Notes under the pieces: generated by a model | Database searches by the model: none | What the model was told of the DNA's origin: nothing | The model's input: only the letters and a program-made list of their open reading frames with translations | Shown here: positions 55,864 to 55,914 of the stretch, one piece after another | Position numbering within the stretch: position 1 is the stretch's first letter | Layout of the letters: each line of letters begins with the position of its first letter | Position numbers and translations under genes: made by a program | NCBI GenBank assembly: GCA_000165345.1 | Contig: CM000430.1 | Span: 704,001-768,000, forward strand | Length of the DNA stretch: 64,000 nt | Direction of reading: 5' to 3'

Positions 55864-55914
55864 CTATACCGGCACCACGTAATTTACGAGACAATTTTAT
55901 ATTCTCCGGTATAG
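55864..55914. promoter_or_regulatory. 51-bp dyad element with 9-bp perfect terminal inverted repeats CTATACCGG...CCGGTATAG, flanking an inner near-palindrome cgtaatttacg, in the divergent Nup62 / membrane-protein promoter region
   Basis: ctataccggcaccacgtaatttacgagacaattttatattctccggtatag. It lies between the GC boxes tacccgcccc (55811..55820) and gtgcccgcc (55925..55933). Confidence 0.5.

What the first reader, a model, noticed from the sequence alone, without database searches (positions are those of the whole stretch)
55864..55914. Recurrent ACCGGTAT(AG) promoter-proximal element, including a 51-bp dyad with perfect 9-bp inverted termini
The heptamer core ACCGGTAT (palindromic centre ACCGGT) occurs at least seven times in AT-rich intergenic DNA. 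These are: 24247 (about 30 bp upstream of the Myb/CHY ATG); 27621 (abutting the ATG of the minus-strand membrane gene, next to GCATGCATGC); 37384; 44314 (upstream of the PHD gene); 55864 and 55906; and 59931 (fused to a GGCGCC core upstream of Dus). For about 15 kb of roughly 80% AT intergenic sequence, fewer than one copy is expected by chance. At 55864..55914 two copies form perfect inverted repeats (CTATACCGG ... CCGGTATAG) around an inner cgtaatttacg near-palindrome. This could be a dimeric TF site or a transcribed hairpin in the Nup62 / membrane-protein divergent promoter. I do not recall this motif among the published Cryptosporidium upstream motifs (E2F-like, G-box, GAGA, CAAT, GCATGCA), so it may be undescribed.
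Basis: seen in the sequence. Interest (0 to 1): 0.55.

Follow-up and report, generated by a model that had tools for sequence, protein, structure and literature searches.

The report
Uncatalogued conserved Cryptosporidium promoter motif CCGGTAT
A short DNA word, CCGGTAT(A/T)(G/A), recurs in the promoter regions of this Cryptosporidium parvum chromosome-2 segment and is kept in distantly related Cryptosporidium species, so it is most likely the binding site of a still-unidentified gene regulator, and the flagged 51-bp "dyad" is two such sites flanking other promoter motifs rather than a hairpin.

Summary
The window is C. parvum chromosome 2, cgd2_345x to cgd2_358x. The shared core is CCGGTAT, not ACCGGTAT, which occurs at only 3 loci.

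- **Enrichment:** CCGGTAT occurs 8 times in 17 kb of non-coding DNA against 0.39 expected. CCGGTATAG occurs 5 times against 0.015 expected. In an unbiased k-mer ranking, only simple repeats and the known GCATGCA and E2F-like GC-rich words (GGCGCCA, CGCGCGC) score higher.
- **Location:** sites lie only in promoter-containing intergenic regions: 5 of 7 divergent, 2 of 8 tandem, 0 of 7 convergent. Six of 8 lie within 55 bp of an E2F-like GGCGCC/GGCGGG word.
- **Conservation:** sites persist in C. meleagridis, chipmunk genotype I, C. ubiquitum, C. felis, C. canis and an unnamed GC-rich species, with some turnover. The orthologous positions checked in C. bovis and C. muris lack CCGGTAT.
- **The dyad:** the perfect 9-bp inverted termini at 55864-55914 are real. 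The left arm decays in C. ubiquitum and is absent in C. felis, with no convincing compensatory changes and no Rfam match. Its interior holds the published GAGAC motif and a recurrent CCACGTAAT.

Best reading: an uncatalogued transcription-factor site within composite promoter cores. Genome-wide enrichment could not be tested.

The parts
55864..55872 (-). Left arm of the dyad: a CCGGTATAG copy read on the minus strand, pointing towards the Nup62-like gene cgd2_3550.
   Evidence: It is conserved in C. meleagridis. In chipmunk genotype I it is CTTTACCGG, and in C. ubiquitum TATACCTG. It is absent in C. felis. C. canis keeps it as ATTACGTGGAG-CCGGTATAG.
55906..55914 (+). Right arm of the dyad: a CCGGTATAG copy on the plus strand, pointing towards the PrsW-like gene cgd2_3560.
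   Evidence: The core CCGGTAT is kept in C. meleagridis, chipmunk genotype I and C. felis, and CCGGTAC in C. ubiquitum. In each it sits in the arrangement ACGAGACAAT-N12/13-CCGGTAY-N9-12-CCCGCC.
55875..55883 (+). CCACGTAAT, an ACGT-core element inside the dyad. Its 3' part belongs to the inner CGTAA-T-TTACG mini-palindrome.
   Evidence: It is 100% conserved in C. parvum, C. meleagridis, chipmunk genotype I and C. ubiquitum and in C. canis. The same word recurs at 27704, where CCACGTAA is conserved as far as C. bovis.
55886..55895 (+). ACGAGACAAT, which contains CGAGACA. This matches the published (A/T/C)GAGAC(A/G) / GAGWCA promoter motif.
   Evidence: The IUPAC match is at 55887-55893. The motif is described in PMC11078545 and in PMC3734150 Table 1. 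It is conserved as far as C. felis, and in inverted orientation in C. bovis.
55813..55823 (.). CCCGCCCCACC, a G-box / E2F-like GC block to the left of the dyad.
   Evidence: It is conserved in C. meleagridis and chipmunk genotype I, and as CCCGCC in C. ubiquitum.
55927..55932 (.). CCCGCC block 12 bp to the right of the right arm.
   Evidence: It is conserved in C. meleagridis, chipmunk genotype I, C. ubiquitum and C. felis.
24248..24256 (+). CCGGTATAG copy whose first base lies 34 bp upstream of the ATG of the Myb-CHY gene cgd2_3460.
   Evidence: No exact CCGGTA copy at the corresponding position upstream of the C. canis, Logan-species or C. bovis genes; no exact CCGGTA copy in the C. felis stretch after UCH, where the Myb gene is not annotated. 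The Logan species has a copy elsewhere in that intergenic region.
27622..27630 (+). CCGGTATTA copy fused to GCATGCATG. It abuts the start codon of the minus-strand gene cgd2_3470 and lies 350 bp upstream of cgd2_3480.
   Evidence: GCATGCATGCCGGTATTA is conserved in C. felis and C. canis; the GC-rich Logan species has ACATGCATGCCGGTATTA. C. bovis has GCATACATTCCTTTAG there while keeping the neighbouring promoter blocks.
37383..37391 (-). CCGGTATAG copy 143 bp upstream of the cgd2_3500 ATG. It sits at the gene-proximal edge of a conserved block holding GGCGCC/GGCGGG, CACGTG and CCCCAC.
   Evidence: CTATACCGGT is identical in C. meleagridis and chipmunk genotype I.
44313..44322 (.). Palindromic double copy ATACCGGTAT in the cgd2_3530 / cgd2_3540 divergent region.
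   Evidence: It is only partly conserved: C. meleagridis has ATACCGGCAT and chipmunk genotype I has ACACCGGTAC.
59931..59939 (+). CCGGTATAG copy 4 bp from GGCGCC and 162 bp upstream of the Dus gene cgd2_3570. It is antisense to Dus.
   Evidence: The arrangement (T)ATACCGG-N4-GGCGCCA is kept in C. canis and the Logan species and as GTACCGG-N4-GAGCGCCA in C. meleagridis. It is weakened in chipmunk genotype I and lost in C. felis. In C. ubiquitum it is replaced by a new TTACCGGTAA about 45 bp away.
13395..13403 (+). Variant copy ACGGTATAG in the PDCD2-like / SDA1-like divergent promoter, between GGCGCC and GGCGGG.
   Evidence: C. canis has the identical GACAGTAAT(A/T)ACGGTATAGG. C. bovis has TCGGTATAAG and C. 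felis has CGATATAAA at the same place.

Best explanation
CCGGTAT(A/T)(G/A), with consensus about a-a/g-a/g-CCGGTAT-A/t-G/a, is a cis-regulatory DNA element. It is most likely the recognition site of a sequence-specific DNA-binding protein that has not yet been matched to a motif. It sits inside the compact promoter cores of C. parvum next to E2F-like (GGCGCC/GGCGGG), GCATGCA, G-box, ACGT-core and GAGAC elements.

The 51-bp dyad at 55864-55914 is not one structural unit. It is a composite module of the bidirectional cgd2_3550 (Nup62-like) / cgd2_3560 (PrsW-like) intergenic region. Two independent, oppositely oriented CCGGTATAG sites bracket a CCACGTAAT element and the known CGAGACA element. GC boxes flank the module on both sides.

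**Shown:** enrichment, restriction to promoter-containing intergenic DNA, co-location with E2F-like words, cross-species retention with turnover, and absence of RNA-structure signals.

**Inferred:** that a protein binds it and that it affects transcription. The identity of the factor is unknown. An orphan Myb-type, C2H2 or PBM-silent AP2 protein are candidates only.
For: **Enrichment**
- CCGGTAT is 8 observed against 0.39 expected in non-coding DNA (p = 9e-9). CCGGTATAG is 5 against 0.015.
- Among non-repeat words only the GCATGCA family and the E2F-like GC-rich words (GGCGCCA, CGCGCGC) rank higher.
- Eight of the 9 copies lie in the 27% of the window that is non-coding (p = 2e-4).

**Location**
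- Sites fall in 5 of 7 divergent, 2 of 8 tandem and 0 of 7 convergent intergenic regions.
- Six of 8 lie within 55 bp of GGCGCC/GGCGGG, against a 10% background (0 of 20,000 permutations).

**Conservation**
- Four of 6 aligned sites are at least 6/7 identical across C. parvum, C. meleagridis and chipmunk genotype I, against a 21% background.
- Exact CCGGTAT is shared in 8 of 14 comparisons of orthologous intergenic regions between C. parvum and distant species. The rate for other GC-containing 7-mers is 14-18% (p about 1e-3). This holds although those genomes are 41-50% GC against 29%.
- Specific conserved instances are the 27622 site, the 55906 module, the Dus-upstream site and the 13395 variant.
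- Turnover typical of factor binding sites occurs: C. ubiquitum loses the Dus site and gains TTACCGGTAA nearby, and the Logan species has a CCGGTA cluster in the PrsW/Nup62 region.

**Orientation:** both orientations occur relative to genes.
Against: - Everything rests on one 64-kb window plus its orthologues. No independent C. parvum sequence could be obtained, so genome-wide enrichment and position relative to transcription starts are untested.
- Several published motif searches (MEME, AlignACE, FIRE, DREME, ATAC-seq peaks) did not report it. This argues that the window may be unusually rich, or that the motif is not tied to an expression class.
- Some copies (24248, 44313) are poorly conserved.
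- The orthologous positions in C. bovis and C. muris lack CCGGTAT.
- No binding protein, chromatin or reporter evidence exists.
Confidence: 0.65

Rival explanations
1. It is a directional core-promoter element: a GC-flanked TATA-like box (CCGG + TATAG/TATAA, analogous to BRE + TATA) or an initiator. It would fix transcription start sites. The two outward-facing arms of the dyad would then drive the two divergent genes.
For: - The arms at 55866(-) and 55906(+) face outwards towards the minus- and plus-strand genes.
- The 24248 and 37385 copies point at the adjacent ATG, 34 and 143 bp away.
- Orthologous variants read CCGGTATATAAA (C. meleagridis), CCGGTATAAGG (chipmunk genotype I), CGGTATAAG (C. 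bovis) and CGATATAAAA (C. felis).
- The 27622 copy touches a start codon in four species.
Against: - Distances to the nearest ATG range from 1 to about 890 bp.
- The Dus-upstream copy is antisense to the only gene that needs a promoter there, and it keeps that orientation in C. canis and the Logan species. In those species the TATA part is not kept (CCGGTATCGAG, CCGGTACCGAG).
- C. ubiquitum and C. meleagridis tolerate CCGGTAC.
- Palindromic copies exist.
- No site matches TATAWAWR.
- In divergent regions any orientation faces a gene, so the orientation evidence is weak.
Confidence: 0.15
2. The 51-bp dyad is a structural unit: a transcribed RNA hairpin, a DNA cruciform, or the site of an obligate dimer contacting both arms.
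For: - The inverted termini are perfect over 9 bp, with an inner 5-bp mini-palindrome.
- The predicted RNA hairpin has a free energy of -13.6 or -15.4 kcal/mol, with z = -2.3 or -2.9 against shuffles.
- The interior is 100% conserved in three species.
Against: - Nine pairs counted over four species show no covariation signal: one outer pair has a double change, no better than shuffled or slid controls. The three outer pairs simply break, and 294 of 500 shuffles pair as well.
- The left arm is mutated in C. ubiquitum and absent in C. felis. C. canis keeps the left arm without the right-arm arrangement.
- The interior is explained by independent motifs. CCACGTAAT recurs at 27704 and CGAGACA is a published motif.
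- No Rfam family matches, even at E <= 1.
Confidence: 0.04
3. It is a local statistical fluke, or sequence that hitch-hikes on neighbouring conserved motifs without a function of its own.
For: - The motif was picked post hoc from this window.
- No independent C. parvum DNA was tested.
- It is absent from published genome-wide motif lists.
- Most copies sit next to other conserved motifs, so part of their conservation could be by neighbourhood.
Against: - The result survives Bonferroni correction over all 7-mers (4332 x 9e-9 = 4e-5).
- The same word is retained at four separate loci in genomes of very different base composition. It is regained nearby after loss in C. ubiquitum.
- In C. bovis the neighbouring blocks of the 27.6-kb promoter are kept while only the CCGGTAT block differs. 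It therefore behaves as a separable unit.
Confidence: 0.12

Closest known systems
C. parvum E2F-like (TTTGGCGCC / TTTGGCGGGAA) and AP2_1 (GCATGCA) promoter motifs (Oberstaller 2013, PMC3734150; review PMC12246861)
   Same: It is a short GC-containing word that stands out in AT-rich intergenic DNA. It occurs in either orientation and clusters in compact, often bidirectional promoters. It is conserved between species. In this window its enrichment is of the same order as theirs, and it lies within tens of bp of them.
   Different: The sequence matches none of the 25 published consensuses. No binding protein or expression class is known. The CCGGTAT form was not seen at the orthologous C. bovis and C. 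muris positions, whereas the E2F-like blocks there are kept.
(A/T/C)GAGAC(A/G) ribosomal-protein-type promoter motif (Hasan 2024, PMC11078545; GAGWCA of Oberstaller 2013)
   Same: This known motif is physically part of the flagged dyad (CGAGACA at 55887-55893). It is the most deeply conserved piece of the module.
   Different: It is a different word from CCGGTAT. It explains the conserved interior of the dyad, not the arms.
Budding-yeast Reb1 site TTACCCGG / CCGGGTAA, a Myb-type general regulatory factor (own knowledge, not tested)
   Same: The core is similar: CCGG followed by TA(A/T). Both lie in promoter cores and bidirectional promoters, and both tolerate either orientation.
   Different: The Cryptosporidium word is one G shorter. 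No Reb1-like protein, nucleosome-depletion or termination evidence was examined. This is a resemblance only.
Myb recognition element YAACNG (own knowledge)
   Same: TACCGG differs from TAACGG by one base. C. parvum has 16 Myb-domain proteins, and none has an assigned motif.
   Different: It is not a match to the consensus, and no binding data exist.
BRE + TATA core promoter
   Same: A GC-rich flank sits immediately 5' of a TATA-like tract. The two copies face outwards in a divergent promoter.
   Different: TATAWAWR is not met. The TATA part is not conserved at the Dus site. Distances to the genes vary widely.

Membership tests
Published C. parvum upstream motif families (25 motifs / 11 families of Oberstaller 2013; six families in the 2025 review; GAGAC motif of Hasan 2024) | The sequence matches the family's IUPAC consensus. 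| tested here: not met
   None of the 26 consensus patterns overlaps any CCGGTAT core by 4 bp or more. The lists were read.
Functional cis-regulatory (factor-binding) promoter motif, in the generic sense | Statistical over-representation in non-coding or upstream DNA relative to composition. | tested here: met
   Eight observed against 0.39 expected (p = 9e-9), rank 10 of 4332 7-mers. This was tested within this window only.
Functional cis-regulatory (factor-binding) promoter motif, in the generic sense | Retention in orthologous promoters beyond the background level. | tested here: met
   Shared in 8 of 14 distant intergenic-region pairs against a 14-18% background. Four of 6 sites are at least 6/7 conserved against 21%. 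The intergenic regions were chosen because C. parvum has the motif there.
Functional cis-regulatory (factor-binding) promoter motif, in the generic sense | Genome-wide enrichment and positional bias relative to transcription starts or open chromatin. | not testable with these tools
   No further C. parvum sequence, start-site or ATAC-seq coordinates could be reached.
Functional cis-regulatory (factor-binding) promoter motif, in the generic sense | A protein binds it, and mutation changes expression. | not testable with these tools
   This is experimental.
Structured RNA / hairpin element | Base pairs are maintained by compensatory changes across species. | tested here: not met
   One outer pair shows a double change, no better than the shuffled or slid controls. 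The outer three pairs break, and 294 of 500 shuffles pair as well. The left arm is lost in C. ubiquitum and C. felis.
Structured RNA / hairpin element | Match to a described RNA family. | tested here: not met
   Rfam gave nothing at the gathering threshold for the whole window. At E <= 1 for 55288-56794 there was nothing in the dyad. No tRNA genes were found.
TATA box / BRE-TATA core promoter | TATAWAWR consensus, conserved. | tested here: not met
   Sites read TATAGN, TATTAA or TATGTG. Orthologues at the Dus site read TATCGA, TACCGA and TACAGT.
TATA box / BRE-TATA core promoter | Fixed orientation and a distance of about 25-35 bp to the start site. | tested here: inconclusive
   Orientation agrees with a downstream gene at most sites but not at the Dus site. 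Start sites are unknown, and the distance to the ATG ranges from 1 to 890 bp.
CDE/CHR-like tandem with an E2F-type site | Fixed short spacer (4 nt) between the E2F-type element and the partner element. | tested here: not met
   The 4-nt spacer is seen only at the Dus site (59931 and its orthologues). Elsewhere the distances are 21-277 bp.
Myb (YAACNG) or Reb1 (TTACCCG) recognition sites | Match to the consensus, and presence of the cognate protein. | not tested
   This is a one-base resemblance recalled from memory.

The most novel reading that the evidence does not exclude
CCGGTAT(A/T)(G/A) is a seventh major promoter motif family of intestinal Cryptosporidium. It would be used genome-wide next to E2F sites, especially at bidirectional promoters. 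It would be read by an orphan factor (Myb-type, C2H2 or a PBM-silent AP2) acting as a general promoter-organising protein. It would be clade-restricted, being present from C. parvum to C. canis and C. felis, and weak or absent in C. bovis and the gastric species.
Probability: 0.3. Interest if true: 0.65.

Novelty: new member of a known kind. Interest (0 to 1): 0.5.

Why it matters
Gene regulation in Cryptosporidium is poorly understood. A 2025 review lists only six promoter motif families. Many predicted DNA-binding proteins, including 16 Myb-domain proteins and several AP2 proteins that failed in binding arrays, have no assigned target sequence (PMC12246861).

A short, well-defined and cross-species-conserved word gives a direct handle for matching one of these orphan factors to its site, by oligonucleotide pull-down or binding arrays. 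It would also help in dissecting the compact bidirectional promoters used for transgene expression in this parasite.

If the word turns out to be confined to a few loci, the finding reduces to a handful of conserved promoter blocks on chromosome 2.

Tried and rejected
- **5' splice-site look-alike (CCG|GTATAG).** This was prompted by the conserved ATGTCAG-GTATAG at 44866. It was rejected. The newer 768-aa model of cgd2_3500 differs from the old 704-aa model at the C-terminal end, not the N-terminus, so there is no upstream exon at the 37385 site. The gap to the ATG at 24248 is too short for an intron. Copies occur in both orientations. My quick test of the PHD-gene intron idea was mis-indexed and left unresolved.
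- **Non-coding RNA gene in the 1.5-kb intergenic region.** Rfam gathering and E <= 1 scans and ARAGORN found nothing in the dyad. Weak miRNA-like hits at 56702-56788 lie in CATG/CATA repeats, far below the gathering scores.
- **Expression-cluster membership of the flanking genes.** Only cgd2_3480 was found in the stored (truncated) Oberstaller 2013 supplement, so this was uninformative.
- **Literature searches for the motif string.** CCGGTAT with Cryptosporidium, and TACCGGTA with binding, returned only primers and cloning sites.
- **Unbiased species sampling.** A metagenome scan with the neighbouring conserved block GGCGCCAACATGYACATGCATA gave 0 hits.
- **Published start-site or 5'-UTR data for C. 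parvum.** The search found nothing usable.
- **All-against-all shared 10-mer listing.** It was too noisy to use directly and was replaced by targeted comparisons of orthologous intergenic regions.
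Full report
**Identity of the window**

Four ORF products are identical to C. parvum Iowa II / ATCC proteins carried on contigs of about 0.99 Mb (chromosome 2 by the cgd2_/CHM_2g gene numbering): the Dus1-like protein EAK88672, EAK88668, the PrsW-like protein EAK88671 and EAK88669. 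Pfam gives the following assignments:
- UCH (22683..23831)
- Myb + CHY zinc finger (24282..26456)
- SF3b2-like DUF382/PSP (38043..39851)
- Nsp1/Nup62-like (52684..55287, minus strand)
- PrsW (56795..58150)
- Dus (58210..59769, minus strand)

Three anchors fix the gene numbers: the C. hominis tag CHM_2g3580 for the 600-aa protein, and cgd2_3460 as the Myb-CHY gene and cgd2_3490 as an AP2 gene in a 2025 review. The genes therefore run from cgd2_3450 (UCH) to cgd2_3580.

**Checking the observation**

The dyad is exactly as described. CTATACCGG lies at 55864-55872 and CCGGTATAG at 55906-55914. They enclose CGTAATTTACG at 55878-55888.

The recurrent word, however, is not ACCGGTAT. That octamer is found only at 24247, 37385 and the palindrome at 44313/44315. 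What all the listed sites share is CCGGTAT:
- It gives 9 matches against 1.05 expected from whole-window shuffles.
- One match is inside a coding ORF (5202).
- Eight are non-coding: 24248+, 27622+, 37385-, 44313-/44316+, 55866-, 55906+ and 59931+.
- CCGGTATAG is exact at five of them.
- The aligned sites give a-a/g-a/g-CCGGTAT-A/t-G/a.

The motif was chosen after reading the window, so I ranked all k-mers in the 17.2 kb of non-coding DNA (25.5% GC) against an order-2 Markov expectation:
- CCGGTAT is 8 against 0.39 (p = 9e-9), rank 10 of 4332 7-mers.
- Only simple repeats, GCATGCA/ATGCATG, CGCGCGC and GGCGCCA rank higher.
- CGGTATAG is 6 against 0.09. CCGGTATAG is 5 against 0.015 (p = 7e-12), second only to ATGCATGCA among non-repeat 9-mers.

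The enrichment is therefore real within this window. It is comparable to that of the two best-known C. parvum motifs. It is also specific to non-coding DNA: 8 of 9 copies lie in 27% of the sequence (p = 2e-4).

**Where the sites lie**

I include the variant ACGGTATAG at 13395 here. The sites fall in 5 of the 7 divergent intergenic regions, 2 of the 8 tandem ones and none of the 7 convergent ones. Six of 8 lie within 55 bp of a GGCGCC/GGCGGG word. Only 10% of non-coding positions do so, and 0 of 20,000 permutations reached the observed count.

Distances to the nearest ATG range from 1 bp (27622 against the minus-strand gene) and 34 bp (24248) to 143, 162, about 580 and about 890 bp. Both orientations relative to genes occur.

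**Related species**

Orthologues of Dus, the PHD protein and UCH gave syntenic loci from eight sources:

| Species | Loci |
|---|---|
| C. meleagridis | L001 |
| Chipmunk genotype I | L002 |
| C. bovis | L003, L010 |
| C. ubiquitum | L004 |
| C. felis | L005, L007 |
| C. muris | L006 |
| C. canis | L008, L011 |
| Unnamed species (~50% GC) from Logan run SRR31860986 | L009, L012 |

In three-way alignments of C. parvum, C. meleagridis and chipmunk genotype I, 8.6% of non-coding 7-mers are fully conserved and 21% are at least 6/7 conserved. For the six aligned CCGGTAT occurrences the figures are 2 fully conserved and 4 at least 6/7 conserved (p = 0.02).

The deeper comparisons are more telling:

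- **Site 27622.** GCATGCATGCCGGTATTA is conserved in C. felis and C. canis, and as ACATGCATGCCGGTATTA in the Logan species. It abuts the called start codon of the minus-strand gene. C. bovis keeps the neighbouring blocks (GGCGCCAACATGTACATGCATAC, CCACGTAATA, ATCCCACACAAA) but has GCATACATTCCTTTAG in place of the motif.
- **Site 55906.** The arrangement ACGAGACAAT-N12/13-CCGGTAY-N9-12-CCCGCC is kept in C. meleagridis, chipmunk genotype I, C. ubiquitum (CCGGTAC) and C. felis (CCGGTATAG).
- **Site 59931.** (T)ATACCGG-N4-GGCGCCA upstream of Dus is kept in C. canis and the Logan species and as GTACCGG-N4-GAGCGCCA in C. meleagridis. It is weakened in chipmunk genotype I (ATACCGT) and lost in C. felis. 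In C. ubiquitum it is replaced by ATACATG, with a new palindromic TTACCGGTAA about 45 bp away. That is classical binding-site turnover.
- **Site 13395.** GACAGTAAT(A/T)ACGGTATAGG between GGCGCC and GGCGGG is identical in C. canis. C. bovis has TCGGTATAAG and C. felis has CGATATAAA at that place.

Across 14 comparisons of orthologous intergenic regions between C. parvum and distant species, the exact 7-mer is shared in 8. This is the highest count of any non-repeat 7-mer. The rate for GC-containing 7-mers in general is 14-18% (p about 1e-3). Those intergenic regions were chosen because C. parvum carries the motif there.

No CCGGTA occurs anywhere in the roughly 43 kb of distinct C. bovis sequence (L003 and L010 overlap by about 4 kb) or 21 kb of C. 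muris sequence. With about 2.3 and 1.4 copies expected, that absence is not significant on its own.

**The 51-bp dyad**

As RNA it could fold into a hairpin of -13.6 or -15.4 kcal/mol, with z = -2.3 or -2.9. Evolution does not treat it as one unit:
- The left arm is CTTTACCGG in chipmunk genotype I and TATACCTG in C. ubiquitum, and is missing in C. felis.
- In C. canis it is the left arm joined to CCACGTAAT (ATTACGTGGAG-CCGGTATAG-N14-GGCGGG) that survives.
- In the Logan species the intergenic region carries a different cluster, CACCGGTACCATACCGGTAATG.
- On a four-species alignment the nine pairs show no covariation signal: one outer pair has a double change, no better than shuffled or slid controls. 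The three outer pairs break, and 294 of 500 shuffles pair as well.
- Rfam finds nothing, even at E <= 1, and there are no tRNA genes.

The perfectly conserved interior is explained by other motifs. CCACGTAAT recurs at 27704, where the CCACGTAA core is conserved as far as C. bovis. CGAGACA at 55887-55893 matches the published (A/T/C)GAGAC(A/G) / GAGWCA motif.

The region 55808-55967 is the main conservation peak of the 1.5-kb intergenic region. It is flanked by CCCGCCCCACC (55813) and CCCGCC (55927).

The dyad is therefore a composite promoter module. Two independent, oppositely oriented CCGGTATAG sites sit around an ACGT-core element and a GAGAC element.

**Most likely mechanism**

The pattern is what one expects of a binding site for a sequence-specific factor working in promoter cores alongside E2F/DP and AP2 proteins. 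The features are:
- a short fixed core;
- either orientation;
- restriction to promoter-containing DNA;
- tight co-location with E2F-like words;
- conservation across a shift from 29% to 50% GC;
- turnover within the same intergenic region.

These features are shown. Binding and an effect on transcription are inferred.

The factor is unknown. C. parvum has 16 Myb-domain proteins without assigned motifs and several AP2 proteins that gave no array motif. From my own knowledge, TACCGG is one base away from the Myb element TAACGG, and CCGGTAA/T is one base shorter than the yeast Reb1 site CCGGGTAA. These are resemblances only.

The main rival is a directional core-promoter element, a GC-flanked TATA-like box or an initiator.
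- For it: the outward-facing arms, and TATA-richer orthologous variants such as CCGGTATATAAA.
- Against it: the antisense, non-TATA conservation at the Dus site (CCGGTATCGAG, CCGGTACCGAG), tolerated CCGGTAC variants, palindromic copies, and the 1-890-bp spread of distances.

Start-site data were not available to settle this.

**Comparison with the literature and novelty**

None of the 25 consensus patterns of Oberstaller et al. 2013, nor the ribosomal-protein GAGAC motif, overlaps a CCGGTAT core. The 2025 review lists only AP2_1, AP2_2, G-box, E2F, GAGA and CAAT-box. The strings CCGG, GGTAT, CGGTA, TACCG and ATACC are absent from the text of eight Cryptosporidium or apicomplexan motif papers. 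Sequence logos in figures cannot be searched, so prior depiction cannot be excluded.

I classify the element as a new member of a known kind, namely a promoter motif.

The chief weakness is scope. All the evidence comes from one 64-kb segment and its orthologues. Several genome-wide motif hunts did not report this word. Either this segment is unusually rich in it, or the word is not linked to any expression class.

**Verdict**

| Item | Assessment |
|---|---|
| Observation | Partly confirmed: core corrected to CCGGTAT; dyad and enrichment confirmed |
| Confidence that it is a functional factor-binding promoter element | 0.65 |
| Interest | 0.5 |

Noticed in passing
window 44540-44626 and 44866-45066 (upstream of the PHD gene cgd2_3540): These non-coding blocks are unusually strongly conserved: 0.8-0.97 identical columns across C. 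parvum, C. meleagridis and chipmunk genotype I, against 0.36-0.6 typical. A 16-mer, GGATGTGTGAAATTAA, is shared with C. bovis (L003:9589). The second block starts with ATGTCAG-GTATAG and is AT-rich. It could be a 5' exon plus intron, a long 5' UTR or an undescribed RNA. Rfam at E <= 1 finds nothing.
   Followed up: partly
window 27655-27760; L007 ~14750-14830; L008 ~15030-15130; L009 ~11520-11620; L010 ~15040-15090: The cgd2_3470/3480 bidirectional promoter is a deep phylogenetic footprint. GGCGCCAACATGTACATGCATAC, (G)CCACGTAATA and ATCCCACACAAA are kept in order from C. parvum to C. bovis, despite large differences in base composition.
   Followed up: partly
window 27704-27712 and 55875-55883: CCACGTAAT, an ACGT-core word, recurs in two deeply conserved promoters. 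It matches none of the 25 published motif consensuses checked around the dyad. It is a second candidate uncatalogued element, possibly bZIP-type.
   Followed up: partly
window 13330-13425; L008 ~1640-1740; L010 ~1075-1160: The PDCD2-like / SDA1-like divergent promoter keeps the order GGCGCCAAAGTCATGCC ... TTTGACAGTAAT-ACGGTATAGG ... GGCGGGCATG between C. parvum and C. canis. A recognisable skeleton remains in C. bovis.
   Followed up: partly
L009 and L012 (Logan run SRR31860986): These contigs come from an unnamed Cryptosporidium-like species with about 50% GC. Its UCH is 86% and its Dus 62% identical to C. parvum, and it is fully syntenic with this region. The species identity was not determined.
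   Followed up: no
window 35128-37242 (cgd2_3500); P0017 against P0018: The old 704-aa model and the newer 768-aa model share the N-terminus but diverge near the C-terminus. This implies an unannotated 3' intron in the older annotation, so the ORF end in the window is not the true protein end.
   Followed up: no
L005 10001-13070 (C. felis Dus model, P0030, 831 aa): The C. felis Dus gene model is much longer than every orthologue (469-531 aa), and the locus did not translate to the query. It is probably a fused or mis-spliced model running into the neighbouring PrsW region.
   Followed up: no
window 56702-56788: Weak Rfam hits to mir-297, mir-466 and mir-3149 (22-32 bits against gathering scores of 85-100) fall in the CATG/CATA-repeat tract just upstream of the PrsW ATG. 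They are low-complexity false positives. The tract itself is a run of GCATGCA (AP2_1-type) words.
   Followed up: yes
window 55640-55690 and 56000-56030: (ATT)n and (AAT)n microsatellites flank the conserved module. Together with other indels they account for most of the length difference of this intergenic region between species: 1.5 kb in C. parvum, 1.0 kb in chipmunk genotype I and 0.63 kb in C. bovis.
   Followed up: no
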